Below, one piece after another: positions 29,101 through 63,963 of a DNA stretch of 64,000 nt (its first letter is position 1; every line of letters starts with the position of its first letter). Under the pieces are notes generated by a model, which saw only the letters and a list, made by a program, of their open reading frames with translations, was not told the DNA's origin and did no database searches. Position numbers and translations under genes: made by a program. Location: assembly GCA_964016885.1 (NCBI GenBank), contig OZ024746.1, forward strand, positions 48,360,001 to 48,424,000, read 5' to 3'. Source of the DNA: Eledone cirrhosa. Its lineage: Eukaryota.

Positions 29101-32100
29101 TGAGAAATCGTAGACGAGAGAGTGAAAAAAGGCGAACCAGCCTGACCAAGCGTGCAAAAGAAAAGAATTACGCACAGGTCAAACGGGAAAAAGTAGGATG
29201 AGGAGAGGTAGTAGCAGAGAGTGAGTGAGTGAAGGGTGAGGAAGCGGCTAACAGAGAAATTGACTGTTAGAGAGGGTAAAGTTACAGAGAAAGAGGAAAC
29301 AGTACGTACGAAATAGACGGGTCACAGCGGGGTAAAGAATATGTGTAAATATGAGAATAAGGGTGCTGCATGGTTGCAAATGGGTTACATATGAATAAAG
29401 TGGTCCTCATCAGTGATCTTCCAACCACCAAGGGTATTTCTTCGCTTTAAAGACCATATACCTCCGGTTGGTGCGAGCAACGGCTAAAAAAAGTCTTGGG
29501 ACACGTAAATAAAGGGGACAGCGAGAGTGTAAACAAACAAAGATGGTGAAGCAACGAAAAGTGAGGAAGAACGTGTCAAGTCCCAAATTTCCATGAATAT
29601 ATGTTCGGTGAAATCGTGAACGAGAGAGAAGAAAGACCATCAAACCTGGTTGGAATGTGAGCAAGGAAGGAATTCCGTACAGGTCTAACGGGAGGAAGAT
29701 GGAATCCAGTCTGTGAATTCGGTGAACATAAGTTCTGTGAAATCGTAGACGAGAGAGAGAAAAAAGGCGAACGAGCCTGACCAAGCGTTCGAAAGAAAAG
29801 AATTACGCACAGGTCAAACGGGAAAAAGTAGGATGAGGAGAGGTAGTAACAGAGAGTGAGTGAGTGAAGGGTGAGGAAGCGGCTAACAGAGAAATTGACT
29901 GTTAGAGAGGGTAAAGTTACAGAGAAAGAGGAAACAGTAAGTACGAAATAGACGGGTCACAGCGGGGGAAAAAATATGTGTAAATATGAGAATAAAGGTG
30001 ATGCATTGTTGCAAATGGGTTACATATGAATAAAGTGGTCCTCATCAGTGATCTTCCAACCACCAAGGGTATTTCTTCGCTTTAAAGACCACATACCTCC
30101 GGTTGGTAGAGAGCAACGGCTAAAAAAATTCGTTGGGACACGTAACTAAAGGGGACAGCGAGAATGAAAACAAACAATAATGGTGAAGCAACGAAAAGTG
30201 AGAAAGAACGAGTCAAGTCCCAAATTTCCATGAATATATGTTCGGTGAAATCGTGAGACAGAGAGAATAAAGTCCATCAAACCTCATTGAAATGTGAGCA
30301 AGGAAGGAAATCCGTGCAGGTCTAATGGGAGGAAGAAGGAATCTAGTCTGTGAATTCGGTGCGCATAAGTTCTGTGAAATTGTAGACGAGAGAGAGAAAA
30401 AAGACGAACCAGCCTGACCAAGCGTGCGAAAGAAAAGAATTACGCACAGGTCAAACGGGAAGAAGGAGGCGGAGGAGAGGAAGTAACAGAGAGTGAGTGA
30501 GTGAAGGGTGAGGAAGAGGCTAACAGAGAGAGTGACTGTTAGAGAGGGTAAAGATACAGAGAAAGAGGAAGCAGTAAGAACGAAATAGACGGGTCATAGC
30601 GGGGTAAAAAATATGTGTAAATATGAGAATAAAGGTGATGCATGGTTGCAATGTGTTACATATGAATAAAATGGTCCTCATCAGAGATCTTCCAACCATC
30701 ACAGGTATTTCTTCGCTTTAGAGACCATATACCTCCGGTTGGTGCGTGCAACGGCTAAAAAAAATTCGTTGGGACACGTAAATAAAGGGGACAGCGAGAG
30801 TGTAAACAAACAAAGATGGTGAAGCAATGAAAAGTGAGGTAGAACGAGTCAAGTCCCAAATTTCCATGAATATATGTTCGGTGAAATCGTGAAACAGAGA
30901 GAATAAAGACCATCAAATCTGGTTGAAATGTGAGCAAGGAAGGAACTCCGTACAGGTCTATCGGGAGGAAGAAGGAATCTAGTCTGTGAATTCGGTGAAC
31001 ATAATTACTGTGAAATCGTAGACGAGAGAGTGAAAAAAGGCGAACCAGCCTGACCAAGCGTGCAAAAGAAAAGAATTACGCACAGGTCAAACGGGAAAAA
31101 GTAGGATGAGGAGAGGTAGTAGCAGAGAGTGAGTGAGTGAAGGGTGAGGAAGCGGCTAACAGAGAAATTGACTGTTAGAGAGGGTAAAGTTACAGAGAAA
31201 GAGGAAACAGTACGTACGAAATAGACGGGTCACAGCGGGGTAAAGAATATGTGTAAATATGAGAATAAGGGTGCTGCATGGTTGCAAATGGGTTACATAT
31301 GAATAAAGTGGTCCTCATCAGTGATCTTCCAACCACCAAGGGTATTTCTTCGCTTTAAAGACCATATACTCCGGTTGGTGCGAGCAACGGCTAAAAAAAG
31401 TCGTTGGGACACGTAAATAAAGGGGACAGCGAGAGTGTAAACAAACAAAGATGGTGAAGCAACTAAAAGTGAGGAAGAACGAGTTAAGTCCAAAATTTCC
31501 ATGAATATATGTTCGGTGAAATCGTGAAACAGAGAGAATAAAGACCATCAAATCTGGTTGAAATGTGAGCAAGGAAGGAACTCCGTACAGGTCTATCGGG
31601 AGGAAGAAGGAATCTAGTCTGTGAATTCGGTGAACATAATTACTGTGAAATCGTAGACGAGAGAGTGAAAAAAGGCGAACCAGCCTGACCAAGCGTGCAA
31701 AAGAAAAGAATTACGCACAGGTCAAACGGGAAAAAGTAGGATGAGGAGAGGTAGTAACAGAGAGTGAGTGAGTGAAGGGTGAGGAAGCGGCTAACAGAGA
31801 AATTGACTGTTAGAGAGGGTAAAGTTACAGAGAAAGAGGAAACAGTAAGTACGAAATAGACGGGTCACAGCGGGGGAAAAAATATATGTAAATATGAGAA
31901 TAAAGGTGATGCATGGTTGCAAATGGGTTACATATGAATAAAGTGGTCCTCATCAGTGATCTTCCAACCACCAAGGGTATTTCTTCGCTTTAAAGACCAT
32001 ATACCTCCGGTTGGTAGAGAGCAATGGCTAAAAAAAGTCGTTGGGACACGTAAATAAAGGGGACAGCGAGAGTGTAAACAAACAAAGATGGTGAAGCAAC

Positions 32101-35100
32101 GAAAACTGAGGAAGAACGAGTCAAGTCCCAAATTTCCATGAATATATGTTCGGTGAAATCGTGAACGAGAGAGAAGAAAGACCATCAAACCTGGCTGGAA
32201 TGTGAGCAAGGAAGGAATTCCGTACAGGTCTAACGGGAGGAAGATGGAATCCAGTCTGTGAATTCGGTGAACATAAGTTCTGTGAAATCGTAGACGAGAG
32301 AGAGAAAAAAGGCGAACCAGACTGACCAAGCGTTCGAAAGAAAAGAATTACGCACAGGTCAAACGGGAAGAAGGAGGAGAAGGAGAGGTAGTAACAGAGA
32401 GTGAGTGAGTGAAGGGTGAGGAAGAGGCTAACAGAGAGATTGACTGTTAGAGAGGGTAAAGATACAGAGAAAGAGGAAACAGTAAGAACGAAATAGACGG
32501 GTCACAGACGGGAAAAATATCTGTAAATATGAGAATAAAGGTGCTGCGTGGTTGCAAATGGGTTACATATGAATAAAGTGGTCCTCATCAGTGATCTTCC
32601 AACCATCACAGGTATTTCTTCGCTTGAAAGACCATATACCTCCGGTTGGTGCGAGCAACGGCTAAAAAAAGTCGTTGGGACACGTAAATAAAGGGGACAG
32701 CCAGAGTGTAAACAAACCAAAATGGTGAAGCAACGAAAAGTGAGGAAGAACGAGTCAAGTCCCAAATATCCATGAATAAAAGTTCGGTGAAATCGTGAAC
32801 GAGAGAGAATAAAGACCATCAAACTTGGTTGGAATGTGAGCAAGGAAGGAATTCCGTATAGGTCTAACGGGAGGAAGAAGGAATCTAGTCTGTGAATTGG
32901 GTGAACATAAGTTCTGTGAAATCGTAGACGAGAGAGAGAAAAAAAAGGCGAACCAGCCGGACCAAGCGTGCGAAAGAAAAGAATTACGCACAGGTCAAAC
33001 GGGAAGAAGGAGGATGAGGAGAGGTAGTAACAGAGAGTGAGTGAGTGAAGGGTGAGGAAGAGGCTAACAGAGAGATCGACTGTTAGAGAGGGTAAAGATA
33101 CAGAGAAAGAGGAAGCAGTAAGAACGAAATAGACGGGTCACAGCGGGTGAAAATATAAGTGTAAATATGAGAATAAACGTGCTGCGTGCTTGCAAATGGG
33201 TTACATATGAATAAAGTGGTCCTCATCAGTGATCTTCCAACCATCACAGGTATTTCTTCGCTTTAAAGACCATATACCTCCGGTTGGTGCGAGCAACGGC
33301 TAAAAAAGGTCGTTGGGACACGTAAATAAAGGGGACAGCCAGAGTGTAAACAAACCAAAATGGTGAAGCAACGAAAAGTGAGGAGAACGAATCAAGTCCC
33401 AAATTTCCATGAATATAAGTTCGGTGAAATCGTGAACGAGAGAGAATAAAGACCATCAAACCTGGTTGGAATATGATCAAGAAATGAATTCCGTACAGGT
33501 CTAACGGGAGGAAGAAGGAATCTAGTCTGTGAATTCAGTGAACATAAGTACTGTGAAATGGTAGACGAGAGAGAAAAAAAAGGCGAACCAGCCTGACCAA
33601 GCGTGCGAAAGAAAAGAATTACGCACAGGTCAAACGGGAAGAAGGAGGATGAGGAGAGGTAGTAACAGAGAGTGAGTGACTGATGGGTGAGGAAGAGGCT
33701 AACAGAGAGATTGACTGTTAGAGAGGGTAAAGATACAGAGAAAGAGGAAACAGTAAGTACGAAATAGACAGGTCACAGCGGTGGAAAAGATATGTGTTAA
33801 TATGAGAATAAACGTGCTGCGTGGTTGCAAATAGGTTACATATGAATAGAGTGGTCCTCATCAGTGATCTTCCAACCCCCAAAGGTATTTATTCGCTTTA
33901 AAGACCATATACCTCCGGTTGGTGCGAGCAACGGCTAAAAAAATTCGTTGGGACACGTAAATAAAGGGGACAGCGAGAGTGTAAAGAAACAACGATGGTG
34001 ACGCAATGAAAAGTGAGGAGAACGAGTCAAGTCCCAAATTACCTTGAATATAAGTTCGGTGAAATCGTGAACGAGAGAGAATAAAGACCATCAAACCTGG
34101 TTGGAATGTGAGCAAGGAAGGAATTCCGTATAGGTCTAACGGGAGGAAGAAGGAATCTAGTCTGTGAATTCGGTGCACATAAGTACTGTGAAATCGTAAA
34201 CGAGAGAGAGAAAAAATGCGAACCAGACTGACCAAGCGTGCGAAAGAAAAGAATTACGCACAGGTCAAACGAGAAGAAGGAGGAGGAGGAGATGTAGTAA
34301 CAGAGAGTGAGTGAATGAAGGGTGAGGAAGAGGCTAACAAAGAGAGTGACTGTTAGAGAGGGTAAAGATACAGAGAAAGAGGAAGCAGTAAGAACGAAAT
34401 AGACGGGTCATTGCGGGAGAAAAATATGTGTAAATATGAGAATAAAGGTGATGCATGGTTGCAATGGGTTACATATGAATAAAATGGTCCTCATCAGTGA
34501 TCTTCCAACCACCACAGGTATTTTTTCGCTTTATAGACCATATACCTCCGGTTGGTGCGAGCAACGGCTAAATAAAATCGTTGGGACATGTAAATAAAGG
34601 GGACAGCGAGAGTGTAAACACAACAAAGATGGAGAAGCAACGAAATGTGAGGAAGAACGAGCCAAGTCCCAAATTTCCATGAATATATGTTCGGTGAAAT
34701 CCTGAAACAGAGAGAATAAAGACCATCAAACCTGGTTGAAATGTGAGCAAGGAAGGAATTCCGTACAGGTCTAACGGGAGGAAGAAGGAATCTAGTCTGT
34801 GAATTCGGGGAACATACGTTCTGTGAAATAGTAGACGAGAGAGAGAAAAAAGGCGAACCAGCCTGACCAAGCGTGCGAAAGAAAAGAATTACGCACAGGT
34901 CAAACGGGAGGAAGGAGGAGAAGGAGAGGTAGTAACAGAGAGTGAGAGAGTGAAGGGTGAGGAAGAGGCTAACAGAGAGAGTGACTGTTAGAGAGGGTAA
35001 AGATACAGAGAAAGAGGAAGAAGTAAGAACGAAATAGACGGGTCACAGAGGGGAAAAAATATGTGTAAATATGAGAATAAAGGTGCTGCGTGGTTGCATA

Positions 35101-38100
35101 TGGGTTACATATGAATAAAGTGGTCCTCATCAGTGATCTTCCAACCATCACAGGTATTTCTTCGCTTTAAAGTCCATATACCTCCGGTTGGTAGCGAGCA
35201 ACGGCTAAAAAAAGTCGTTGGTACACGTAAATAAAGGGGACAGCAAGAATGTAAACAAACAAAAATGGTGAAGCAACGAAAAGTGAGAGAGAACGAGTCA
35301 AGTCCCAAATTTCCATGAATATAAGCTCGGTGAAATCATGAACGAGAGAGAATAAAGACCATCAAACCTGGTTGGAATGTGAGCAAGGAAGGAATTCCGT
35401 ACAGGTCTAACGGGAGGAAGAAGGAATCTAGTCTGTGAATTGGGTGAACATAAGCACTGTGAAATCGTAGACGAGAGAGAGAAAAAAGTCGAACCAGCCT
35501 GACCAAGTGTGCGAAAGAAAAGAATTACGCACAGGTCAAACGGGAAGAAGGAGGATGAGGAGAGGTAGTAACAGAGAGTGAGTGAGTGAAGGGTGAGGAA
35601 GGGGCTAACAAAGAGAGTGACTGTTAGAGAGGGTAAAGATACAGAGAAAGAAGAAGCAGTAAGAACGAAATAGAAGTGTCACAGAGGGAAAAAATATGAA
35701 TAAATATGAGAATAAACGTGCTGCGTGGTTGCACATGGGTTACATATGAATAAAGTGGTCCTCATCAGTGATCTTGCAACCACCACAGGTATTTCTTCGC
35801 TTTAAAGACCATATACCACCGGTTGGTGCGAGAAACGGCTAAAAAAAGTCGTTGGGACACGTAAATAAAGGGGACAGCGAGAGTGTATACAAACAAAGAT
35901 GGTGAAGCAACGAAAAGTGAGGAAGAACGAGTCAAGTTCCAATTTCCATGAATATAAGTTCGGTGAAAACGTGAATGAGAGAGAATAAAAACCATCAAAA
36001 CTGGTTGAAATGTAAGGAAGGAATTCTGTACAGGTCTAACGGGAGGAAGAAGGAATCTAGTCTGTGAATTCGGTGAACATAAGTACTGTGAAATGGTAGA
36101 CGAGAGAGAGAAAAAAGGCAAACCAGCCTGACCAAGCGTCCGAAATGAAAGAATTACGCACATGTCAAACGGGAAGAAGTAGGAGGAGGATAGGTTGTAA
36201 CAGAGAGTGAGTGAGTGAAGGGCGAGGAAGAGGCTAACAAAGAGAGTGACTGTTAGAGAGGGTAAAGATACAGAGAAAGAAGAAGCAGTAAGAACGAAAT
36301 AGACGGGTCACAGAGAGGAAAAATATGTGTAAATATGAGAATAAAGGTGCTGCGTGGTTGCAAATGGGTTACATATGAATAAAGTGGTTCTCATCAGTGA
36401 TCTTCCAACCATCAGAGGTATTTCTTCGCTTGAAAGACCATATACCTCCGGTTGGTGCGAGCAACTGCTAAAAAAAGTCGTTGGGACACGTAAATAAAGG
36501 GGACAGCCAGAGTGTAAACAAACAAAGATGGTGAAGCAACGAAAAGTGAGGAAGAACGAGTCAAGTCCCAAATTTCCATTAATATAAGTTCGGTGACATC
36601 GTGAATGAGAGAGAATAAAGACCATCAAACCTGGTTGGAATGTGAGTAAGGAAGGAATTCCGTACAGGTCTAACGGGAGGAAGAAGGAATCTAGTCTGTG
36701 AATTCGGTGAACATACGTTCTGTGAAATCGTAGACGAGAGAGAGAGAAAAAAGGCGAACCAGCCTGACCATGCGTGCGAAAGGAAAGAGATACGCACATG
36801 TCAAACGGGAAGAAGGAGGAGGAGGAGAGGTAGTAACAGAGAGTGAGTGAATGAAGGGTGAGGAATAGGCTAACAGAGATAGAGTGACTGTTAGAGTTAG
36901 AGAGGGTAAAGATACAGAGAAAGAGGAAGCAGTAAGAACGAAATAGACGGGTCATAGCGGGGGAAAAAATATGTGTAAATATGAGAATAAAGGTGATGCA
37001 TGGTTGCAAATGGGTTACATATGAATAAAATGGTCCTCATCAGTGATCTTCCAACCATCACAGGTATTTCTTCGCTTTAGAGACCATCTACCTCCGGTTG
37101 GTGCGTTCAACGGCTAAAAAAAATTCGTTGTGACATGTAAATAAAGGGGACAGCGAGAGTGTAAACACAACAAAGCTGGTGAAGCAACTAAAAGTGAGGA
37201 AGAACGAGTCAAGTCTCAAATTTCCATGTATATATGTTCGGTGAAATCGTGAAACAGAGAAAATAAAGACCATCAAACCTGGTTGGAATGTGAGCAAGGA
37301 AGGAATTCCGTACAGGTCTAACGGGAGGAAGAAGGAATCTAGTCTGTGAATTCGGTGAACATACGTTCTGTGAAATAGTAGACGAGAGAGAGATAAAAGG
37401 CGAACCAGCCTGACCAAGCGTGCGAAAGAAAAGAATTACGCACAGGTCAAACGGGAAGAAGGAGGAGGAGGAGAGGTAGTAACAGAGATTGAGTGAGTGA
37501 AGGGTGAGGAAGAGGCTAACAGAGAGAGTGGCTGTTAGAGAGGGTAAAGATAAAGAGAAAGAGGAAGAAGTAAGAACGAAATAGACGGGTCACAGAGGGG
37601 AAAAAATATGTGTAAATATGAGAATAAAGGTGCTGCGTGGTTGCAAATGGGTTACATATGAATAATGTAGTCCTCATCAGTAATCTTCCAACCATCACAC
37701 GTATTTCTTCGCTTTAAAGACCATATACCTCCGGCTGGTGCGAGCAACGGCTAAAAAAAGTCGTTGGGACACGTAAATAAAGGGGACAGCGAGAGTGTAA
37801 ACAAACAAAGATGGTGAAGCAACGAAAAGTGAGGAAGAACGTGTCAAATCCAAAATTTCCATGAATATATGTTCGGTGAAATCGTGAAATAGAGAGAATA
37901 AAGACCACCAAACCTGGTTGAAATGTGAGCAAGGAAGGAATTCCGTACAGGTCTAACGGGAGGAAGTAGGAATATCGTCTGTGAATTCGGTGAACATAAG
38001 TTCTGTGAAATCGTAGACGACAGAGAGAAAAAAGGCTAACCAGCCTGACCAAGCGTACGAAAGAAAAGAATTACGCACAGGTAAAACGGGAAGAAGGAGG

Positions 38101-39930
38101 AGGAGGAGAGGTAGTAACAGAGAGTGAGTGAATGAAGGGTGAGTAAGAGGCTAACAGAGAGAGTGACTGTTAGAGAGGGTAAAGATACAGAGGAAGAGGA
38201 AGCAGTAAGAACGAAATAGACGGGTCTCAGCTGGGGAAAAAATATGTGTAAATATGAGAATAAACGTGCTGCGTGGTTACAAATGGGTTACATATGAATA
38301 ATGTGGTCCTCATCAGTGATCTTCCAACCATGAAAGGTATTTCTTCGCTTTAAAGACCATATACCTCCGGTTGGTGCGAGCAACGGCTAAAAAAATCGTT
38401 GGGACACGTAAATAAAGGGGACAGCGAGAGTGTAAACAAACAAAGATGGTGAAGCAACGGAAAGTGAGGAAGAACGAGTCAAGTCCCAAATTTCCATGAA
38501 TATATGTTCGGTGAAATCGTGAACGAGTGAGAATAAAGACCATCAAACCTGGTTGGAATGTGAGCAAGGAAGGAATTCCGTACAGGACTAACGGGAGGAA
38601 AAAGGAATCTACTCTGTGAATTCGGTGAACATAAGTTCTGTGAAATCGTAGACGAGAGAGAAAAAAAACGCGAACCAGCCTGACCAAGCGTGCGAAAGAA
38701 AAGAATTACGCACAGGTCAAACGCGAAGAAGGAGCAGGAGGAGAAGTAGTAACAGAGAGTGAGTGAGTGAAGGGTGAGGAAGTGGCTAACAGAGAGAGTG
38801 ACTGTTAGAGAGGGTAAAGATACAGAGAAAGAGGAAGCAGTAAGAACGAAATAGACGGGTCACAGCTGGGGAAAAATATGTGTAAATATGAGAATAAACG
38901 TGCGGCGTGGTTACAAATGGGTTACATATGAATAATGTGGTCCTCATCAGTGATATTCCAACCATCACAGGTATTTCTTTGCTTTAAAGACCATATACCT
39001 CCGGTTGGTCGGAGCAACGGCTAAAAAAAGTCGTTGGGACACGTAAATATAGGGGACAGCGAGTGTGTAAACAAACAAAGATGGTGAAGCAACGAAAAGT
39101 GAGGAAGAACGTGTCAAATCCAAAATTTCCATGAATATATGTTCGGTGAAATCGTGAAATAGAGAGAATAAAGACCATCAAACCTGGTTGAAATGTGAGC
39201 AAGGAAGGAATTCCGTACAGGACTAACGGGAGGAAGAAGGAATCTCGTCTGTGAATTCGGTGAACATAAGTTCTGTGAAATCGTAGACGAGAGAGAGAAA
39301 AAAAGGCGAACCAGCCGGACCAAGCGTGCGAAAGAAAAGAATTACGCACAGGTCAAACGGGAAGAAGGAGGATGAGGAGAGGTAGTAACAGAGAGTGAGT
39401 GAGTGAAGGGTGAGGAAGAGGCTAACAGAGAGATTGACTGTTAGAGAGGGTAAAGATACAGAGAAAGAGGAAGCAGTAAGAACGAAATAGACGGGTCACA
39501 GCGGGGGAAAAAATATGTGTAAATATGAGAATAAACGTGCTGCGTGGTTGCAAATGGGTTACATATGAATAAAGTGGTCCTCATCAGTAATCTTCCAACC
39601 ATCACAGGTATTTCTCCGCTTTAAAGACCATATACCACTGGTTGGTGCAAGCAACGGCTAAAAAAAGTCGTTGGGACATTTACATAAAGGGGACAGCGAG
39701 AGTGTAAACAAACAAAGATGGTGAAGCAACGAAAAGTGAGGAAGAACGAGTCAAGTCCCAAATTTCCATGCATATAAGTTCGGTGAAATCGTGAACGAGA
39801 GAGAATAAAGACCATCAAACCTGGTTGGAATGTGAGCAAGGAAGGAATTCCGCACAGGTCTAACGGGAGGAAGTCTGTGAATTCGGTGAACATAAGTTCT
39901 GAGAAATCGTAAACGAGAGAGAGAAAAAAG
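23144..39930 (+). repeat. ~635-bp satellite, about 26.5 tandem units, purine-rich on the + strand
   Basis: The landmark ggtcctcatcagtgatc and close variants recur 26 times from about 23700 to 39580 at ~635-bp spacing. Both ends abut (TA)n-type tracts. Confidence 0.97.
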
Positions 39931-39958
39931 ATACATACATATATATATATGTATATAA

Positions 39959-39990
<32 letters not shown>

Positions 39991-40253
39991 CCATGTAGGA
40001 GAACTCCCACCGATGCGCTGAACGAGCGTGACTTTTTAGTCCAGCCTGCGACTTGAAAACTCTGGTACAAACACTACACTTGTGACAATTAATGACACAT
40101 AGTACTGGGCCCATGGTACCATGTGATGACAATATATATATATATATATACATATATACATAAATATATATATACATACATATATATACATATACATACA
40201 TATATATACATATACATACATACATACTTACATATATATACATATATACACGC

Positions 40254-46069: not shown

Positions 46070-46172
<103 letters not shown>

Positions 46173-46389
46173 TTTACGTATCGAGAAAGAGAGAAAAAAA
46201 GGAGGGATAGGTGATACATATAGTTATTTGCCAAGTAGCGTATGCCAAAGGTGCTCGATACTAGTGCCGGCAGTATTAAATATTCGAAGTGTTAATATTT
46301 AGTGGGCTAGAGAGTTAGCAGAGTGTAAGCACGTGGGAAAGTGAAAAATCGGAGAATAGACCGTTAAAACATGTTTATTTAAAATATCA

Positions 46390-46425
46390 CCTACGTACGT
46401 TTCGCCCAGTTGGGCTTCTCAAGGG
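46390..46425 (-). ncRNA. Minimal hammerhead variant (CUUGAGAA core)
   Basis: CC CUUGAGAA GCCC aacu GGGC GAAA CGUACG UA GG, with a palindromic stem III. Confidence 0.55.
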
Positions 46426-46677
46426 CATAAACAATCACAAGTGTTCCTTATATAGTTCAGAAAGAGTTTTGGGGGTTAAATCCACATCAAGATTCATTGC
46501 TCGCAAAAATATCTTGTTTTGATTTTGCAGCAGGTCAAGGGAGGTAACTTTGGCCGGTGTTAGGGCAGTCTTTCCCGGATAATTTTTGGTATGCAGGTAT
46601 AGTTTTCTGGGTGTTATTTTGCTGCGCCTGCCCGCCGGGGTGTTAAGACTTGTTGCAGGGAGATCCAGTGTGCTATT

Positions 46678-47646
46678 TCACTCTTCATTCTTAACCCATC
46701 TAAAGAAGGATATTTTTAAGCGATGTGTACAACTTATCGCTGTTTCAGCTCTGCTGTTGATGAGCTCGTGGGGTGCAGTTATGATGTGGTAGAGCTCCAT
46801 GAGGCAAAGATCGCATTTCCTCTTGAAGTTGTACGGTGCAGCCCTGTCGAGAATCTCCCAGTGCGTGGAGAAGCTAATGTTTAAGTCCTTTAGTGATGTG
46901 ATGTAGTCCGCGAGCGAGGTGGAGTGCCTTAGTTTTCTATTTGTGAAAGAGTGGAGATGTGTTCGAAACCTAATTTTGAACGGGCCGGAGGTGGCCCCTA
47001 TATAATATTTAACGCTATTGTGGCTAGTAATAGTGCATCTATATATAACCCTATCGGTCAAGCAGTATCCTCTAAGGGGGCACCGTCCTCTGTCGCGGCA
47101 GTTGCAATTTCTGTCGCTGTTCCGTCTATTTCCCACGATAAGGCTATCATTGTTGCTGCCTACGTTGCTAGCTGCGCTACCGCAGCTGTCGTTAGCACAA
47201 TTACAACCCACAGCACGCGGGATGGTGCGATTGTTATTCCGCACGCCATGTTTTGCATGCTCTCCAGTCACTTCGCGGTCATTCTGGTTGCGTCTGCGGA
47301 TGCCGTTGCCAACACTATTGGATGCTGTCAGGGAGTTGTTAAGGCCGATACAGTTATTGTCAGGTGTAGGTGCGTCTGCGTCGAGGTGCTGTGTCTTGGT
47401 GATCTTACTGTGGTTCGTTGTTCCTATGATGTCTGTTAGGTTAGGAGTAGTAGAGAAGGATATTTTTATATTGTTCCTATTAAGAATTTTTCTATACCTA
47501 TGGTTGGGTGGGAAGTTCTTCTCTAAGGCTTCGAAGAATATCCGGGGTATGTTGGAGGCCACACTTCGAGAGTAGGGGGGGGTGGAGCCATAGGACGTTA
47601 CGGTGGCGATTACGTGTCCTTGTACTTTTGCTACGGGTGGTTCCAT
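46678..47646 (-). CDS. PLE C-terminal region with Cys-rich GIY-YIG endonuclease
   Basis: PPYS..VASNI...KNFP..H...LNRNNIKISFS...CNCR....CPLRGYCL...VIY...YIGAT...FKIRF..H...CDLCLME...NSR.E...C.H. Probably frameshifted just upstream of PPYS, since LWLHPP lies in the neighbouring frame. Confidence 0.82.
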   Translation of the reverse strand: MEPPVAKVQGHVIATVTSYGSTPPYSRSVASNIPRIFFEALEKNFPPNHRYRKILNRNNIKISFSTTPNLTDIIGTTNHSKITKTQHLDADAPTPDNNCIGLNNSLTASNSVGNGIRRRNQNDREVTGEHAKHGVRNNNRTIPRAVGCNCANDSCGSAASNVGSNNDSLIVGNRRNSDRNCNCRDRGRCPLRGYCLTDRVIYRCTITSHNSVKYYIGATSGPFKIRFRTHLHSFTNRKLRHSTSLADYITSLKDLNISFSTHWEILDRAAPYNFKRKCDLCLMELYHIITAPHELINSRAETAISCTHRLKISFFRWVKNEE

Positions 47647-48265: not shown

Positions 48266-48312
<47 letters not shown>

Positions 48313-48317
<5 letters not shown>

Positions 48318-51300
48318 GGAATAGAATGAAACGAAATTTCATTTCTAACTCTTTGTACGGCACTTACATAAATGTAAGTATGTATGTATACGTACATACA
48401 TATATGTATACAGACGTAAGTAGTATGTATATATATACATACATGCACACATAGATATATGCATGTATCGGTTTACCGAACATTTATTATAATGTAAACA
48501 AACAAACAGCCCGAATTACGCCGTACAGTGTTTAGGCAACCACGACACCTTTTTGTTCAACACTGACAAAAGAACAATGTACTAGTTTCAAGCTTATTAG
48601 CTATCGTCAGCATCGTATAATTCCTACCAGATGGTTGAACGTCTGAAAGTATATACTTTCCTTATGCATATTAACGGCTGAGCAGCCTAATTTTCATATC
48701 GAGTGAGTTCAGTCGGCCGGGCACACCGAAAACGATAAATGGAATAGAATGAAACGAAATTTCATTTCTCACTCTTTGTACGGCACTTACTTAAATGTAT
48801 GTATGTATGTATACGTACATACATATATGTATACAGACATACAGTAGTATGTATATATATACAAACATGCACACATAGATATATGCAGGTATCGGTTTAC
48901 CAAACATTTATTATAATGTTCGGTTTGTTTGTGTGTAAACAAACAAACAGCCCGAACTACGCCGTACAGTGTTTAGGCAACCACGTCATCTTTTTGTTCA
49001 ACACTGACAAAAGAACAATGTACTAGTTTCAAGCTTATTAGCTATCGTCAGCATCGTATACCTTCCTGCCAGATGGTTGAACGTCTGAAAGTATATACTT
49101 TCCTTATGCATATTAACGGCTGAGCAGCCTAATTTGCATATCGAGTGAGTTCAGTCGGCCGGGCACACCGAAAACGATAAATGGAATAGAATGAAACGAA
49201 ATTTCATTTCTCACTCTTTGTACGGCACTTAATTAAATGTATGTATGTATGTATACGTACATACATATATGTATACAGACGTACAGTAGTATGTTTTTTA
49301 CATGCACACATATATATATGCACGTATCGGTTTACCAAACATTTATTATAATTTTTGGTTTGTTTGTTTGTAAACAAACAGCCCGAATTACGCCGTACAG
49401 TATTTAGGCAACCACGTCACCTTTTTGTTCAACACTGACACAGGAACCATGTACTAGTTTCAAGCTTATTAGCTATCGTCAGCATCGTATACCTTCCTGC
49501 CAGATGGTTGAACGTCTGAAAGTATATACTTTCCTTATGCATATTAACGGCTGAGCAGCCTAATTTACATATCGAGTGATTTCAGTCGGCCGGGCACACC
49601 GAAAACGATAAATGAAATAGAATGAAACGAAATTTAATTTCTCACTCTTTGTACGGCACTTACTTAAATGTAAGTATGTATGTATGTATACGTACATACA
49701 TATATGTTTATAGACGTACAGTAGTATGTATATATATACATACATATATATATATGCACGTATCGGTTTACCGAACATTTATTACAATGTTCAGTTTGTT
49801 TGTTTGTAAACAAACAAACAGCCCGAATTACGCCGTACAGTGTTTAGGCAACCACGACACCTTTTTGTTCAACACTTACACAGGAACGATGTACTAGTTT
49901 CAAGCTTATTAGCTATCGTCAGCATCGTATACCTTCCTGCCAGATGGTTGAACGTCTGAAAGTATATACTTTCCTTATGCATATTAACGGCTGAGCAGCC
50001 TAATTTGCATATCGAGTGAGTTCAGTCGGCCGGGCACACCGAAAACGATAAATGGAATAGAATGAAACGAAATTTCATTTCTCACTCTTTGTACGGCACT
50101 TAATTAAATGTATGTATGTATGTATACGTACATACATATATGTATACAGACGTACAGTAGTATGTTTTTTACATGCACACATATATATATGCACGTATCG
50201 GTTTACCAAACATTTATTATAATTTTTGGTTTGTTTGTTTGTAAACAAACAGCCCGAATTACGCCGTACAGTATTTAGGCAACCACGTCACCTTTTTGTT
50301 CAACACTGACACAGGAACCATGTACTAGTTTCAAGCTTATTAGCTATCGTCAGCATCGTATACCTTCCTGCCAGATGGTTGAACGTCTGAAAGTATATAC
50401 TTTCCTTATGCATATTAACGGCTGAGCAGCCTAATTTACATATCGAGTGATTTCAGTCGGCCGGGCACACCGAAAACGATAAATGAAATAGAATGAAACG
50501 AAATTTAATTTCTCACTCTTTGTACGGCACTTACTTAAATGTAAGTATGTATGTATGTATACGTACATACATATATGTTTACAGACGTACAGTAGTATGT
50601 ATATATATACATACATATATATATATGCACGTATCGGTTTACCGAACATTTATTACAATGTTCAGTTTGTTTGTTTGTAAACAAACAAACAGCCCGAATT
50701 ACGCCGTAGTGTTTAGGCAACCACGACACCTTTTTGTTCAACACTGACACAGGAACGATGTACTAGTTTCAAGCTTATTAGCTATCGTCAGCATCGTATA
50801 CCTTCCTGCCAGATGGTTGAACGTCTGAAAGTATATACTTTCCTTATGCATATTAACGGCTGAGCAGCCCAATTTGCATATCGAGTGAGTTCAGTCGGCC
50901 GGGCACACCGAAAACGATAAATCGAATAGAATGAAACGAAATTTCATTTCTCACTCTTTGTACGGCCCTTACTTAAATTAAGTATGTATGTATACGTACA
51001 TACATATATGTATACAGACATACAGTAGTATGTATATATATACATACATGCACACATAGATATATGCAGGTATCGGTTTACCAAACATTTATTATAATGT
51101 TCGGCTTGTTTGTTTGTAAACAAACAAACAGCCCGAATTACGCCGTACAGTGTTTAGGCAACCACGTCATCTTTTTGTTCAACAGTGACAAAAGAACAAT
51201 GAACTAGTTTCAAGCTTATTAGCTATCGTCAGCATCGTATACCTTCCTGCCAGATGGTTGAACGTCTGAAAGTATATACTTTCCTTATGCATATTAACGG

Positions 51301-54300
51301 CTGAGCAGCCTAATTTGCATATCAAGTGAGTTCAGTCGGCCGCGCACACCGAAAACGATAAATGGAATAGAATGAAACGAAATTTCATTTCTCATTCATT
51401 GTACGGCACTTAATTAAATGTATGTATGTATACGTACATACATATATGTATACAGACGTACAGTAGTATGTTTTTTACATGCACACATATATATATATGC
51501 ACGTATCGGTTTACCGAACATTTATTATAATGTTCGGTTTGTTTGTTTGTAAACAAACAAACAGCCCGAATTACGCCGTACAATGTTTAGGTAACAACGT
51601 CACCTTTTTGTTTAACACTGACACAGGAACGATGTACTAGTTTCAAGCTTATTAGCTATCGTCAGCATCGTATACCTTCCTGCCAGATGGTTGAACGTCT
51701 TAAAGTATATACTTTCCTTATGCATATTAACGGCTGAGCAGCCTAATACATATATGTATACAGACGTACAATAGTATGTATATATATACATACATGCACA
51801 CATATATATATATATGCACGTATCGGTTTACCAAACATTTATTATAATTTTCGGTTTGTTTGTTTGTAAACAAACAGCCCGAATTACGCCGTACAGTATT
51901 TAGGCAACCACGTCACCTTTTTGTTCAACACTGACACAGGAACCATGTACTAGTTTCAAGCTTATTAGCTATCGTCAGCATCGTATACCTTCCTGCCAGA
52001 TGGTTGAACGTCTGAAAGTATATACTTTCCTTATGCATATTAACGGCTGAGCAGCCTAATTTACATATCGAGTGATTTCAGTCGGCCGGGCACACCGAAA
52101 ACGATAAATGAAATAGAATGAAACGAAATTTAATTTCTCACTCTTTGTACGGCACTTACTTAAATGTAAGTATGTATGTATGTATACGTACATACATATA
52201 TGTTTACAGACGTAAATATATATACATACATATATATATGCACGTATCGGTTTACCGAACATTTATTACAATGTTCAGTTTGTTTGTTTGTAAACACACA
52301 AACAGCCCGAATTACGCCGTACAGTGTTTAGGCAACCACGACACCTTTTTGTTCAACACTGACACTGGAACGATGTACTAGTTTCAAGCTTATTAGCTAT
52401 CGTCAGCATCGTATACCTTCCTGCCAGATGGTTGAACGTCTGAAAGTATATACTTTCCTTATGCATATTAACGGCTGAGCAGCCTAATTTGCATATCGAG
52501 TGAGTTCAGTCGGCCGGGCACACCGAAAACGATAAATGGAATAGAATGAAACGAAATTTCATTTCTCACTCATTTTTACGGCACTTAATTAAATGTATCT
52601 ATGTATGTATACGTACATACATATATGTATACAGACGTACAGTAGTATGTTTTTTACAGGCACACATATATATATGCACGTATCGGTTTACCGAACATTT
52701 ATTATAATGTTCGGTTTGTTTGTTTGTAAACAAACAGCCCGAATTACGCCGTACAGTATTTAGGCAACCACGTCACCTTTTTGTTCAACACTGACACAGG
52801 AACCATGTACTAGTTTCAAGCTTATTAGCTATCGTCAGCATCGTATACCTTCCTGCCAGATGGTTGAACGTCTAAAAGTATATACTTTCCTTATGCATAT
52901 TAACGGCTGAGCAGCCTAATTTACATATCGAGTGATTTCAGTCGGCCGGGCACACCGAAAACGATAAATGAAATAGAATGAAACGAAATTTAATTTCTCA
53001 CTCTTTGTACGGCACTTACTTAAATGTAAGTATGTATGTATGTATACGTACATACATATATGTTTACAGACGTACAGTAGTATGTATATATATACATATA
53101 TGCACAAATAGATATATGCAGGTATCGGTTTACCAAACATTTATTATAATGTTCGGTTTGTTTGTTTGTAAACAAACAAACAGCCCGAATTACGCCGTAC
53201 AGTGTTTAGGCAACCACGTCATCTTTTTGTTCAACAGTGACAAAAGAACAATGAACTAGTTTCAAGCTTATTAGCTATCGTCAGCATCGTATACCTTCCT
53301 GCCAGATGGTTGAACGTCTGAAAGTATATACTTTCCTTATGCATATTAACGGCTGAGCAGCCTAATTTGCATATCAAGTGAGTTCAGTCGGCCGCGCACA
53401 CCGAAAACGATAAATGGAATAGAATGAAACGAAATTTCATTTCTCACTCATTGTACGGCACTTAATTAAATGTATGTATGTATACGTACATACATATATG
53501 TATACAGACGTACAGTAGTATGTTTTTTACATGCACACATATATATATGCACGTATCGGTTTACCGAACATCTATTATAATGTTCGGTTTGTTTGTTTGT
53601 AAACAAACAAACAGCCCGAATTACGCCGTACAATGTTTAGGTAACAACGTCACCTTTTTGTTTAACACTGACACAGGAACGATGTACTAGTTTCAAGCTT
53701 ATTAGCTATCGTCAGCATCGTATACCTTCCTGCCAGATGGTTGAACGTCTGAAAGAATATTCTTTCCTTATGCATATTAACGGCTGAGCAGCCTAATACA
53801 TATATGTATACAGACGTACAGTAGTATGTATATATATACATACATGCACACATATATATATATATGCACGTATCGGTTTACCAAACATTTTTCATAATTT
53901 TCGGTTTGTTTGTTTGTAAACAAACAGCCCGAATTACGCCGTACAGTATTTAGGCAACCACGTCACCTTTTTGTTCAACACTGACACAGGAACCATGTAC
54001 TAGTTTCAAGCTTATTAGCTATCGCCAGCATCGTATACCTTCCTGCCAGATGGTTGAACGTCTGAAAGTATATACTTTCCTTATGCATATTAACGGCTGA
54101 GCAGCCTAATTTACATATCGAGTGATTTCAGTCGGCCGGGCACACCGAAAACGATAAATGAAATAGAATGAAACGAAATTTAATTTCTCACGCTTTGTAC
54201 AGCACTTACTTAAATGTAAGTATGTATGTATGTATACGTACATACATATATGTTTACAGACGTAAATATATATACATACATATATATATGCACGTATCGG

Positions 54301-57300
54301 TTTACCGAACATTTATTACAATGTTCAGTTTGTTTGTTTGTAAACAAACAAACAGCCCGAATTACGCCGTACAGTGTTTAGGCAACCACGACACCTTTTT
54401 GTTCAACACTGACACAGGAACGATGTACTAGTTTCAAGCTTATTAGCTATCGTCAGCATCGTATACCTTCTGCCAGATGGTTGAACGTCTGAAAGTATAT
54501 ACTTTCCTTATGCATATTAACGGCTGAGCAGCCTAATTTGCATATTGAGTGAGTTCAGTCGGCCGGGCACACCGAAAACGATAAATGGAATAGAATGAAA
54601 CGAAATTTCATTTCTCACTCATTGTACGGCACTTAATTAAATGTAAGTATGTATGTATACGTACATACATATATGTATACAGACGTACAGTAGTATGTAT
54701 ATATATACATACATGCACACATATATATATGCACGTATCGGTTTACAGAACATTTATTATAATGTTCGGTTTGTTTGTTTGTAAACAAACAAACAGCCCG
54801 AATTACGCCGTACAGTGTTTAGGCAACCACGTCATCTTTTTGTTCAACACTGACAAAAGAACAATGTACTAGTTTCAAGCTTATTAGCTATCGTCAGCAT
54901 CGTATACCTTCCTGCCAGATGGTTGAACGTCTGAAAGAATATACTTTCCTTATGCATATTAACGGCTGAGCAGCCTAATTTGCATATCGAGTGAGTTCAG
55001 TCGGCCGGGCACACCGAAAACGATAAATGGAATAGAATGAAACGAAATTTCATTTCTCACTCTTTGTACGGCACTTACTTAAATTAAGTATGTATGTATA
55101 CGTACATACATATATGTATACAGACATACAGTAGTATGTATATATATACATACATGCACACATAGATATATGCAGGTATCGGTTTACCAAACATTTATTA
55201 TAATGTTCGGTTTGTTTATTTGTAAACAAACAAACAGCCCGAATTACGCCGTACAGTGTTTAGGCAACCACGTCATCTTTTTGTTCAACAGTGACAAAAG
55301 AACAATGAACTAGTTTCAAGCTTATTAGCTATCGTCAGCATCGTATACCTTCCTGCCAGATGGTTGAACGTCTGAAAGTATATACTTTCCTTATGCATAT
55401 TAACGGCTGAGCAGCCTAATTTGCATATCAAGTGAGTTCAGTCGGCCGCGCACACCGAAAACGATAAATGGAATAGAATGAAACGAAATTTCATTTCTCA
55501 CTCATTGTACGGCACTTAATTAAATGTATGTATGTATACGTACATACATATATGTATACAGACGTACAGTAGTATGTTTTTTACATGCACACATATATAT
55601 ATGCACGTATCGGTTTACCGAACATTTATTATAATGTTCGGTTTGTTTGTTTGTAAACAAACAAACAGCCCGAATTACGCCGTACAATGTTTAGGTAACA
55701 ACGTCACCTTTTTGTTTAACACTGACACAGGAACGATGTACTAGTTTCAAGCTTATTAGCTATCGTCAGCATCGTATACCTTCCTGCCAGATGGTTGAAC
55801 GTCTTAAAGTATATACTTTCCTTATGCATATTAACGGCTGAGCAGCCTAATACATATATGTGTACAGACGTACAGTAGTATGTATATATATACATACATG
55901 CACATATATATATATATATGCACGTATCGGTTTACCAAACATTTATTATAATTTTCGGTTTGTTTGTTTGTAAACAAACAGCCCGAATTACGCCGTACAG
56001 TATTTAGGCAACCACCTCACCTTTTTGTTCAGCACTGACACAGGAACCATGTACTAGTTTCAAGCTTATTAGCTATCGTCAGCATCGTATACCTTCCTGC
56101 CAGATGGTTGAACGTCTGAAAGTATATACTTTCCTTATGCATATTAACGGTTGAGCAGCCTAATTTGCATATTGAGTGGGTTCAGTCGGCCGGGCACACC
56201 GAAAACGATAAATGGAATAGAATGAAACGAAATTTCATTTCTCACTCATTGTACGGCACTTAATTAAATGTAAGTATGTATGTATACGTACATACATATA
56301 TGTATACAGACGTACAGTAGTATGTATATATATACATACATGCACACATATATATATGCACGTATCGGTTTACAGAACATTTATTATAATGTTCGGTTTG
56401 TTTGTTTGTAAACAAACAAACAGCCCGAATTACGCCGTACAGTGTTTAGGCAACCACGTCATCTTTTTGTTCAACACTGACAAAAGAACAATGTACTAGT
56501 TTCAAGCTTATTAGCTATCGTCAGCATCGTATACCTTCCTGCCAGATGGTTGAACGTCTGAAAGAATATACTTTCCTTATGCATATTAACGGCTGAGCAG
56601 CCTAATTTGCATATCGAGTGAGTTCAGTCGGCCGGGCACACCGAAAACGATAAATGGAATAGAATGAAACGAAATTTCATTTCTCACTCTTTGTACGGCA
56701 CTTACTTAAATTAAGTATGTATGTATACGTACATACATATATGTATACAGACATACAGTAGTATGTATATATATACATACATGCACACATAGATATATGC
56801 AGGTATCGGTTTACCAAACATTTATTATAATGTTCGGTTTGTTTGTTTGTAAACAAACAAACAGCCCGAATTACGCCGTACAGTGTTTAGGCAACCACGT
56901 CATCTTTTTGTTCAACAGTGACAAAAGAACAATGTACTAGTTTCAAGCTTATTAGCTATCGTCAGCATCGTATACCTTCCTGCCAGATGGTTGAACGTCT
57001 GAAAGTATATACTTTCCTTATGCATATTAACGGTTGAGCAGCCTAATTTGCATATCGAGTGAGTTCAGTCGGCCGGGCACACCGAAAACGATAAATGGAA
57101 TAGAATGAAACGAAATTTCATTTCTCACTCATTTTTACGGCACTTAATTAAATGTATCTATGTATGTATACGTACATACATATATGTATACAGACGTACA
57201 GTAGTATGTTTTTTACATGCACACATATATATATGCACGTATCGGTTTACCGAACATTTATTATAATGTTCGGTTTGTTTGTTTGTAAACAAACAAACAG

Positions 57301-58525
57301 CCCGAATTACGCCGTACAATGTTTAGGTAACAACGTCACCTTTTTGTTTAACACTGATACAGGAACGATGAACTAGTTTCAAGCTTATTAGCTATCGTCA
57401 GCATCGTATACCTTCCTGCCAGATGGTTGAACGTCTGAAAGTATATACTTTCCTTATGCATATTAACGGCTGAGCAGCCTAATACATATATGTATACAGA
57501 CGTACAGTAGTATGTATATATATACATACATGCACACATATATATATATATATGCACGTATCGGTTTACCAAACATTTATTATAATTTTCGGTTTGTTTG
57601 TTTGTAAACAAACAGCCCGAATTACGCCGTACAGTATTTAGGTAACCACGTCACCTTTTTGTTCAACACTGACACAGGAACCATGTACTAGTTTCAAGCT
57701 TATTAGCTATCGTCAGCATCGTATACCTTCCTGCCAGATGGTTGAACGTCTGAAAGTATATACTTTCCTTATGCATATTAACGGCTGAGCAGCCTAATTT
57801 ACATATCGAGTGATTTCAGTCGGCCGGGCACACCGAAAACGATAAATGAAATAGAATGAAACGAAATTTAATTTCTCACTCTTTGTACGGCACTTACTTA
57901 AATGTAAGTATGTATGTATGTATACGTACATACATATATGTTTACAGACGTAAATATATATACATACATATATATATGCACGCATCGGTTTACCGAACAT
58001 TTATTACAATGTTCAGTTTGTTTGTTTGTAAACAAACAAACAGCCCGAATTACGCCGTACAGTGTTTAGGCAACCACGACACCTTTTTGTTCAACACTGA
58101 CACAGGAACGATGTACTAGTTTCAAGCTTATTAGCTATCGTCAGCATCGTATACCTTCCTGCCAGATGGTTGAACGTCTGAAAGTATATACTTTCCTTAT
58201 GCATATTAACGGCTGAGCAGCCTAATTTGCATATTGAGTGAGTTCAGTCGGCCGGGCACACCGAAAACGATAAATGGAATAGAATGAAACGAAATTTCAT
58301 TTCTCACTCATTGTACGGCACTTAATTAAATGTAAGTATGTATGTATACGTACATACATATATGTATACAGACGTACAGTAGTATGTATATATATACATA
58401 CATGCACACATATATATATGCACGTATCGGTTTACAGAACATTTATTATAATGTTCGGTTTGTTTGTTTGTAAACAAACAAACAGCCCGAATTACGCCCT
58501 ACAGTGTTTAGGCAACCACGTCACC
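48313..58525 (-). repeat. ~430-445-bp satellite, 24 tandem units, each with a hammerhead ribozyme motif (retrozyme-like array)
   Basis: actagtttcaagcttattagctatcg(t/c)cagcatcgt occurs 24 times from about 48580 to 58114. Four units are ~313-bp deletion variants. Confidence 0.95.
49886..49928 (-). ncRNA. Representative minimal type I hammerhead of the satellite
   Basis: ACGAUG CUGACGA U AGCU aaua AGCU U GAAA C UA G UA CAUCGU: 6-bp stem I, intact core, GUA cleavage triplet. Confidence 0.8.
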
Positions 58526-58795
58526 ACGTATACGATGCTGACGATAGCTAATAACGTTGAAACTAGCACATCGTTCCTGTGTCAGTGTTGAACAAAAAGG
58601 TGACGTTGTTGCCTAAACACTGTACGGTGTAATTCGGGCTGTTTGTATGTTTACAAACAAACAAACCGAACATTATAATAAATGTTCGGTAAACCGATAC
58701 GTGCATATATATATATGTGTGCATGTATGTATATATTTACATACTACTGTACGTCTGTATACATATATGTATGTACGTATACATACATACATACT
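58526..58795 (+). repeat. Inverted partial satellite unit closing the array (degenerate HHR)
   Basis: acgatgctgacgatagctaataacgttgaaactagcacatcg: stem II is broken and the triplet is GCA. Confidence 0.85.
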
Positions 58796-58866
<71 letters not shown>

Positions 58867-59115
58867 GAAAGGTATAGAAAACACTGCAGCGAAAAGCGAA
58901 CAGCATTGCATAGTATATAAGTGACTATAGCGTCAAAATGGGGAAAATAGTTAACGTAAGATGTGGGAAAAATAATTTAAACTCATCTTAAAGAGAATCA
59001 GGATATAAATTCATCCACAGAATTTAGTGAAATCCAGGGAAAAATCAATAGAGCCTTAACTCATGATAAAATAAAGTTCAAGATTCCTATCCTTCAATTT
59101 GGAAAAACTTCAAAT

Positions 59116-59193
59116 GCTCTGTATAGTCGTAAGACTATTTCATGAAAACTTTCAGCGGAGATGGTCACGGTTGGAGTTCATCATCAGCAGAGC
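59116..59193 (-). ncRNA. Type I hammerhead with full stem III
   Basis: GCUCUG CUGAUGA UGAA...UUCA u GAA AUAGUC uuac GACUAU A CAGAGC: stem I 6 bp, stem III 6 bp, AUA triplet, one extra U before G12. Confidence 0.75.
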
Positions 59194-59741
59194 TCAACTC
59201 GATAACCAGGATTCTCGCAGATTAATATACCAAAAAGGAAATTCTAAAGCTGGCCAGTCCAACATCATGCGTGATCACGAAAAACGCATACGAGGAAAAA
59301 TGGCTATTGACGTCAGAATGAGACGAAAGTTTGTTTACAAGAAACAACAGTCAAAAACATTCCGAAAAAAAACCTCTACAGTAAGGAGTTCAGCAAAATG
59401 CAATATTATCGCAGTTTTTTTATAAAAAAACCGGGATTAGTCACAAATAATTTAAGCACTCGAGGAAAAATCCGAGTATAAATATATAAATGAAAGGTAT
59501 AGAAAACACTGCAGCGAAAAGCGAACAGCATTCCATAGTATATAAGTGACTATAGCGTCAAAATGGGAAAAATAGTTAACGTAAGATGTGGGAAAAATAA
59601 TTTAAACTCATCTTAAAGAGAATCAGGATATAAATTCATCCACAGAATTTAGTAAAATCCAGGGAAAAATCAATAGAGCCTTAACTCATGATAAAATAAA
59701 GTTCAAGATACCTATCCTTCAATTTGGAAAAAACTTCAAAT

Positions 59742-59819
59742 GCTCTGTATAGTCGTAAGACTATTTCATGAAAACTTTCAGCGGAGATGGTCACGGTTGG
59801 AGTTCATCATCAGTAGAGC
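59742..59819 (-). ncRNA. Second hammerhead copy (A.C mismatch at the first stem I pair)
   Basis: Same as 59116-59193 except GCUCUA upstream of the core. Confidence 0.65.
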
Positions 59820-59889
59820 TCAACTCGATAACCAGGATTCTCGCAGATTAATATACCAATATATATATATATTTATATATACCTCAGGG

Positions 59890-61853: not shown

Positions 61854-61926
61854 GCCGAAATATCTCAGTTGAGAGAGCGTTAGACTGAAGATCTAAAGAC
61901 CCCTGGTTCAAGCCCGGGTTTCGGCA
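61854..61926 (+). tRNA. tRNA-Phe(GAA), diverged, probable pseudogene
   Basis: gccgaaa...ttaga ctGAAga tctaa...tttcggca. D-stem and A-box changes (tatctc, gagaga). Confidence 0.75.
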
Positions 61927-62783: not shown

Positions 62784-62856
62784 GCCGAAATAGCTCAGTT
62801 GGGAGAGCGTTAGACTGAAGATCTAAAGGTCCCTTGTTCAATCCCGGATTTCGGCA
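62784..62856 (+). tRNA. tRNA-Phe(GAA), with two T-stem mismatches
   Basis: gccgaaatagctcagttgggagagcgttagactgaagatctaaaggtcccttgttcaatcccggatttcggca, followed by T runs. Confidence 0.85.
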
Positions 62857-63890: not shown

Positions 63891-63963
63891 GCCGAAATAG
63901 CTCAGTTGGGAGAGCGTAAGACTGAAAATCTAAAGGTCCCTGTTTCAATCCCGGGTTTCGGCA
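63891..63963 (+). tRNA. tRNA-Phe(GAA), diverged (anticodon-stem and T-stem/B-box changes)
   Basis: gccgaaatagctcagttgggagagcgtaagactgaaaatctaaaggtccctgtttcaatcccgggtttcggca. Confidence 0.78.

What the first reader, a model, noticed from the sequence alone, without database searches (positions are those of the whole stretch)
58861..59859. Independent 626-bp HHR-to-HHR unit with a full-stem hammerhead
Seen: a 1.6-mer direct repeat unrelated to the satellite, bounded by (TA)n. It has two minus-strand HHRs 626 nt apart, with a 6-bp stem III, a 6-bp stem I (one mismatch in the second copy) and no credible ORF. Inference: this more-than-one-monomer structure is what reverse transcription around a circular RNA template would leave, so it may be a second retrozyme family able to cleave as a monomer.
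Basis: partly seen in the sequence, partly recalled or inferred. Interest (0 to 1): 0.75.

Follow-up and report, generated by a model that had tools for sequence, protein, structure and literature searches.

The report
Hammerhead retrozyme with altered ribozyme core
This is one copy of a non-coding 626-base repeat found at thousands of TA-repeat sites in this animal genome; each unit carries a predicted self-cutting hammerhead RNA and is likely copied in by Penelope-type jumping-gene enzymes, and this copy's branch kept spreading after losing a base beside the ribozyme core, which would let one test whether cutting is needed at all.

Summary
In detail: a 1.6-mer of a 625/626-bp non-coding unit, two minus-strand type I hammerhead (HHR) motifs 626 nt apart, inside (TA)n. 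It is an independent dispersed family (2,440 exact HHR-motif hits, control 0; subfamilies 72-98% identical), not the end of an ORF-bearing element in any locus examined. Copies are not permuted: 146 of 155 share one fixed 3' end, 261 nt past the cut site, with variable 5' truncation, the footprint of Penelope-like internal initiation. Copies run through the cut site without piling up there, and units within one insertion share variants, so the template was a circle or an uncut multimer. Stems I and II covary across subfamilies. Two things were missed. The window's subfamily has lost nucleotide 10.1 yet kept amplifying, so monomer cleavage of this copy is doubtful. A covarying helix of about 18 bp pairs the 30-nt loop II with the upstream leader. 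Cleavage, RNA circles and the mobilising enzyme are untested or unidentified. It works like a metazoan non-LTR retrozyme. The scan has reported the same kind of element on other DNA of this and related genomes; no note matched this sequence.

The parts
58861..59859 (-). whole insertion, 1.6 units of the 625/626-bp repeat; fixed 3' end at 58861, truncated 5' end at 59859
58807..58863 (.). (TA)n target at the fixed 3' end
58858..58870 (-). fixed 3' end, inferred reverse-transcription start; same end motif as the neighbouring satellite family
59116..59193 (-). downstream type I HHR motif: stem I 59193-59188/59121-59116, CUGAUGA 59187-59181, stem II 59180-59177/59146-59143 with unpaired U59142 (10.1 lost), GAAA 59141-59138, stem III 59138-59133/59128-59123, predicted cut 59122|59121
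59153..59220 (-). covarying long helix between the leader (59220-59195) and loop II (59174-59153); predicted pseudoknot or inhibitory lock
59122..59747 (-). cut-to-cut monomer, 626 nt (predicted RNA unit)
59436..59495 (-). internal copy of the start site plus the hairpin just 3' of it; unit positions 576-600 are the only 25-nt bin fully conserved across five identity bands; candidate RT recognition signal (inference)
59742..59819 (-). upstream type I HHR motif, same 10.1 loss plus A.C mismatch at 59814; predicted cut 59748|59747
59860..59881 (.). short imperfect TA run at the truncated 5' end

Best explanation
It is one insertion of a dispersed non-coding hammerhead repeat family that is likely copied into (TA)n by a Penelope-like RT-endonuclease, starting at one fixed internal site and probably running round a circular unit-length RNA. 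Shown: family, fixed 3' end, 5' truncation, TA targeting, read-through of the cut site, homogeneous units within an insertion, covarying stems. Inferred steps: (1) a locus of more than one unit is transcribed on the minus strand; (2) two HHRs cut out a 626-nt monomer, which a host ligase closes; (3) a PLE protein nicks (TA)n, binds the conserved hairpin 3' of the start site and primes cDNA 261 nt downstream of the cut site; (4) RT passes the ligated junction and drops off at random, often at TA-like microhomology, leaving 0.05-2.7 units; (5) some insertions later expand as DNA into arrays of 5-51 units. The leader-loop II helix would slow or gate cleavage. The window's subfamily, lacking nucleotide 10.1, is predicted to cut slowly, and this copy is a poor source because of its extra mismatch.
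For: 2,440 exact HHR-motif hits vs 0 control. 146 of 155 pieces >=150 nt start at the fixed end; 125 of 155 have (TA)4+ at the variable end. 0 of 64 3'-anchored insertions end at unit 256-268 and 11 of 64 exceed one unit; 163 units cross the cut site, 3 with a gap there. Adjacent units in one insertion share 33 of 217 variant sites vs 10.4+-2.8 for random partners, 0 of 2000 draws as high; no variant tied to first or second unit recurs among loci. The 51-unit array is not the source: its variants 404G (35 of 51), 271C (27 of 51), 411A (22 of 51) occur in 0 of 49, 0 of 84 and 0 of 49 dispersed units. Stem I has two and stem II two pairs changed on both sides, 93.6% of 330 cells paired. Two young PLE families in the same window also end at fixed sites in (TA)n. 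Internal initiation downstream of the HHR is shown for an anole PLE (PMC11167929); cleavage, RtcB ligation and circles are shown for coral, mussel and axolotl retrozymes (PMC7229834).
Against: No cleavage or RNA data. Window HHRs lack 10.1; predicted pairing probabilities in linear context are 0.27 for stem I and 0.01 for stem II (pseudoknot-free model). One insertion (L022) has a core G5C change in both units, hard to get from a self-excised circle. HHR mutants did not affect PLE insertion in vitro (PMC11167929), and 8 of 9 Xenopus dimers tested did not cleave (bioRxiv 10.64898/2026.07.22.740005). Stem III never covaries. Covariation cells count related copies, not events. One copy ends exactly at the cut site (L326) and two end at unit 265, ambiguous with TA. 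Neither PLE family tested shares DNA homology or the end motif with the unit. No A>G excess on the HHR strand (30 vs 60 T>C; rates 0.0031 vs 0.0035).
Confidence: 0.6

Rival explanations
1. Same PLE-driven mobilisation, but the template is an uncut linear multimer transcript; the HHR is slow or vestigial, at least in the window's subfamily, and no circle is needed.
For: [quoted passage not shown]
Against: No position-specific variants shared among multi-unit loci and no 5' pile-up that would mark a transcript start; the one large array examined is not the source; compensatory changes in stems I and II across 72-98% divergent subfamilies and a canonical A10.1-U11.1 pair in the clade with the shortest branches point to selection on cleavage. 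48 of 148 hits were not listed, so other arrays may exist.
Confidence: 0.28
2. The unit is only the pseudo-LTR end of an autonomous PLE, and the copies are its truncations.
For: Same anatomy as PLE ends: HHR some 260 nt before a fixed end in (TA)n. Xenopus retrozymes are often homologous to pLTRs (bioRxiv 10.64898/2026.07.22.740005).
Against: All subfamilies are colinear over the whole unit and loop back to its start; none of 155 pieces continues into a PLE ORF at its 5' junction (nearest hits in the sense of the HHR strand lie at least about 250 nt into the flank, in separate insertions); none of 71 end-motif junctions leads into a contiguous PLE ORF; no homology to two PLE families. Only a few hundred of some thousands of copies were seen.
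Confidence: 0.07
3. A DNA-level satellite or duplication product with a chance hammerhead-like motif.
For: Long arrays show higher-order DNA duplication patterns; Rfam has no hit.
Against: Dispersed polarised insertions with fixed 3' and variable 5' ends; compensatory stems; even the arrays keep the fixed end and a truncated 5' end.
Confidence: 0.02

Closest known systems
Metazoan non-LTR retrozymes (Cervera and de la Pena 2020, PMC7229834; Li, Clavereau and Pollet, bioRxiv 10.64898/2026.07.22.740005)
   Same: Non-coding, low-GC tandem units with one type I HHR each; monomers, dimers and long arrays; co-occur with PLEs; U10.1.U11.1 variants are known (axolotl HHR_Amex2).
   Different: 626 nt is above the 150-450 bp of the 2020 paper, though inside the 51-972 bp of the preprint; 6-bp stem III and 30-nt loop II paired to the leader; a mobile sublineage without nucleotide 10.1; one fixed internal 3' end and strict (TA)n targeting, not described in the parts read; no pLTR parent found; cleavage and circles untested.
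EN+ Penelope-like elements, incl. Poseidon PAc (PMC11167929) and (TA)n-targeting Hydra/Naiad/Neptune clades (PMC8557442)
   Same: Partial tandem structure, fixed internal start downstream of a sense HHR, 5' truncation, (TA)n preference.
   Different: No ORF; essentially one start site rather than two flanking a tail; no sequence homology to the two PLE families tested.
Pseudoknotted hammerheads (Perreault et al. 2011, PMC3088659)
   Same: Base pairing between the stem I and stem II regions in place of loop-loop contacts.
   Different: The helix here is about 18 bp with only 5-6 nt of linker back to stem II, probably too long to coexist in full with the active fold (inference); the block order is the ordinary type I order, not the SGC permutation of PMC10085705.

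Membership tests
Metazoan non-LTR retrozyme | type I HHR in each repeat unit | tested here: met
   window subfamily deviates at 10.1
Metazoan non-LTR retrozyme | short tandem units, non-coding, GC below 50% | tested here: met
Metazoan non-LTR retrozyme | dispersed multi-copy family co-occurring with PLEs | tested here: met
Metazoan non-LTR retrozyme | self-cleavage of the transcript | not testable with these tools
   needs an in vitro assay
Metazoan non-LTR retrozyme | accumulates as circular RNA | not testable with these tools
   no RNA run available; genomic footprints are indirect
Metazoan non-LTR retrozyme | homology to the pLTR of a resident PLE (reported for 21 PLEs in Xenopus; not universal) | tested here: inconclusive
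   no homology to 2 PLE families; other families not sampled
Autonomous EN+ Penelope-like element | ORF with RT and GIY-YIG endonuclease | tested here: not met
Autonomous EN+ Penelope-like element | partial tandem with fixed internal 3' end and 5' truncation | tested here: met
Autonomous EN+ Penelope-like element | two start sites flanking an optional tail | tested here: inconclusive
   only 1 of 6 hits truly starts at unit 54, but 15 of 38 pieces end at 57-62
Canonical hammerhead ribozyme | CUGANGA, GAAA, A15.1-U16.1, NUH, three stems | tested here: met
Canonical hammerhead ribozyme | 10.1-11.1 pair (or U.U) closing stem II | tested here: not met
   window subfamily lacks 10.1; met in sister subfamilies (987 hits)
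Canonical hammerhead ribozyme | match to an Rfam hammerhead model | tested here: not met

The most novel reading that the evidence does not exclude
A retrozyme whose hammerhead is held shut by a conserved leader-loop II helix until the PLE protein, or a second unit in trans, opens it, and in which a sublineage that lost nucleotide 10.1 still rolled off circles. It would be a natural new active core variant with a built-in switch, read by an RT that recognises a short start signal shared by unrelated retrozyme families at about 11,000 sites.
Probability: 0.2. Interest if true: 0.75.

Novelty: new variant of a known kind. Interest (0 to 1): 0.48.

Why it matters
That animal retrozymes are written into DNA by PLE enzymes from circles is proposed, not shown, in the papers read (PMC7229834; bioRxiv 10.64898/2026.07.22.740005), and HHR cutting was dispensable for one PLE in vitro (PMC11167929). 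This family supplies a defined start site, a candidate recognition hairpin and a natural series of ribozyme junctions (A-U, U.U, 10.1 lost), each with a record of amplification, so the role of cutting can be tested directly. The class itself is known, and the scan has many similar cases.

Tried and rejected
Rfam scans: no hammerhead hit. Permuted start points: rejected. 51-unit array as master: rejected. A-to-I editing signature: none seen. Second start site near unit 55-60: rare. Autonomous partner: not found among 155 5' flanks, 71 end-motif junctions, 30+30 loci of two PLE families, nor by four short motif look-ups in the supplement of PMC8557442 (line breaks can hide matches). No RNA holder listed; laying three contig sets of one sample gave only fragmented repeat contigs. 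Sequence look-up in earlier findings: nothing. Literature: 'octopus + hammerhead ribozyme + Penelope' gave only PMC8557442; searches for an 11.1/10.1 core variant and for type I pseudoknots in retrotransposons gave no description of this variant; two searches found the papers used. My scripts labelled two window ORFs 'Naiad'; by eye they resemble Hydra-1_Obim in the supplement, so that label is dropped. bioRxiv supplements were not seen, and Repbase-type libraries were not available, so the family may already be listed as an unclassified repeat.

Full report
Observation. The repeat, its spacing, both hammerhead (HHR) motifs, the AUA cut site at 59122, the mismatch in the 59813 copy, the TA flanks and the lack of a credible ORF are all as described. 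Rfam finds no hammerhead here. The genome is 3.0 Gb; 'octopus-like' comes from earlier scan notes, not from a test of mine.

Family. A DNA search scored 39 of 3,023 candidates and returned dispersed copies at 92-98% identity. A pattern for stem III, cut site and stem I gave 2,440 exact hits against 0 for the reversed control. Subfamilies down to about 72% identity are colinear over the whole unit. The junction (TA)n plus end motif occurs 11,120 times against 270 control hits. Of the first 30 such loci, 14 are this family, 10 the neighbouring satellite's family, 2 a third HHR family and 4 unassigned. That gives very roughly 5,000 insertions, extrapolated from 22 Mb of one contig.

Ends. All 30 best loci share one end, but that query was biased, so I re-anchored on the HHR. 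Of 155 pieces of at least 150 nt, 146 begin at the fixed end, and 125 have (TA)4+ at the variable end. On the HHR strand this is a fixed 3' end 261 nt downstream of the cut site, with variable 5' truncation. Start points are not permuted. This matches internal initiation by Penelope-like elements, shown in vitro for PAc (PMC11167929, parts 1-2 of 4 read), and the (TA)n preference of several PLE clades (PMC8557442, passages, section 11 and supplement look-ups read). Two young PLE families in the window also end at fixed sites in (TA)n, at three and at two main sites, in 30 loci each. Neither shares homology or the end motif with the unit, so the mobiliser is not identified. A second start near unit 55-60 is rare (1 true case among 6 hits), yet 15 of 38 pieces end at 57-62. 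TA microhomology is the simplest cause; a tail-like origin is not excluded.

Template. In 64 3'-anchored insertions from contigs C1 and C2, none ends at unit 256-268 and 11 exceed one unit (about a dozen loci fetched earlier were left out of this set, and none of them ends there either). In a second set of 38, one ends exactly at the cut site and one at 265. Of 163 units crossing the site, 3 have a gap there. So RT did not usually stop at the cut: the template was circular or uncut. Within the window's subfamily (100 units, 74 loci, five duplicated or rearranged pieces dropped; mean 1.8% from majority), adjacent units share 33 of 217 variant sites against 10.4+-2.8 at random. Several shared variants are private to one locus, and no variant tied to unit position recurs. 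That fits repeated copying of one monomer, but also later gene conversion or a homogeneous array source. One locus carries a core G5C change in both units, which argues against a self-excised circle there. Long arrays of 5.5 to 51 units keep the fixed end and a truncated 5' end where both ends were seen, and several show DNA-level higher-order duplication. The 51-unit array of this subfamily is not its master. There is no A>G excess. The cut-to-cut circle folds at -132 kcal/mol, z = -2.6 on 40 shuffles.

Ribozyme. Across 22 hand-picked copies, 93.6% of cells pair; two stem I pairs and two stem II pairs change on both sides; stem III is nearly invariant with a variable loop (related copies inflate the counts). 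Most subfamilies close stem II with A10.1-U11.1 or U.U (987 exact hits); U.U is a tolerated variant (PMC3088659, sections 7-8 read; PMC7229834, parts 2-4 of 6 read). The window's form has lost 10.1 (148 exact hits, including many in the 51-unit array). In a tree of 72 of 98 long copies, the loss marks a supported clade nested among U.U lineages, plus one array in a second place; the clade with the shortest branches has the A-U pair (midpoint root, recombination not tested). The loss therefore did not stop amplification, but whether it cuts is unknown; I found no account of this variant. A helix between the leader 5' of stem I and the 30-nt loop II also covaries. In 129 HHR regions the outer pair is U-A 64 and C-G 32 of 100 scored, and an inner pair is G-C 73, A-U 24 and G-U 7 of 108 scored. 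Its inner part could act as the stem I-II pseudoknot known from PMC3088659. The full helix of about 18 bp probably excludes the active fold and would act as a lock (inference). The block order is ordinary type I, not the SGC permutation (PMC10085705, abstract and section 13 read).

Mechanism and comparison. The best reading is a non-autonomous retrozyme: transcription, HHR excision and ligation (inferred from coral, mussel and axolotl), then PLE target-primed reverse transcription from a fixed internal site, round the circle, into (TA)n. The main rival keeps the PLE step but uses uncut multimers; it is strongest for the window's subfamily. A plain pLTR is unlikely: none of 155 5' junctions and none of 71 end-motif junctions leads into a contiguous PLE ORF, though only part of the family was seen. 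It works like a metazoan non-LTR retrozyme and meets every sequence-level feature tested; cleavage and circular RNA could not be tested. Unit size is within the range in bioRxiv 10.64898/2026.07.22.740005 (parts 1-3 of 5 read; supplements not seen).

Verdict. Real, and a variant of a known kind. The specific additions are the single start site shared with unrelated families, the leader-loop II helix and the mobile 10.1-loss lineage. Earlier scan notes describe similar families in this and related genomes; none matched this sequence. Interest 0.48.

Noticed in passing
window 48312-58525 and 58528-58794: 431-446-bp satellite with a minimal type I HHR motif per unit on the minus strand and an inverted terminal arm; it joins (TA)n with the same end motif as the 626-bp family.
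   Followed up: partly
window 18510-22175 (+): Young high-copy C-terminal-EN Penelope-like element (RT frame, stop, GIY-YIG-like frame), HHR-like motif at 21864, three main 3' ends (22113, 22156, 22175) in (TA)n; clade not tested.
   Followed up: partly
window 46170-47646 (-) and 16691-18420 (+): 3' ends of two Hydra-like PLE families (by eye); the first has two fixed ends about 160 nt apart, at 46331 and about 46170.
   Followed up: partly
G000:C3:161512232-161543854 (L247-L250): 51-unit, 31.6-kb array of the window's subfamily with higher-order repeats; a satellite apparently born from one insertion.
   Followed up: yes
L279:1511-2060: Third non-coding family with the same end motif and a large type I HHR with a long stem III, on the opposite strand.
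   Followed up: no
unit positions 316-317 (window 59176-59177): The GAATTC-like site in loop II is unusually variable, within loci and within the large array; unexplained.
   Followed up: no
L022: 1.7-unit insertion with core G5C in both HHRs.
   Followed up: partly
window 61854-61926, 62784-62856, 63891-63963: Three tRNA-like genes about 1 kb apart.
   Followed up: no
window about 23000-40000: 17-kb stretch with strong uniform GC and AT skew and recurring similar frames, probably a long-period tandem repeat.
   Followed up: no
window 1691(+)/815(-) and 5045(+)/4912(-): Further HHR-like motifs in inverted pairs.
   Followed up: no
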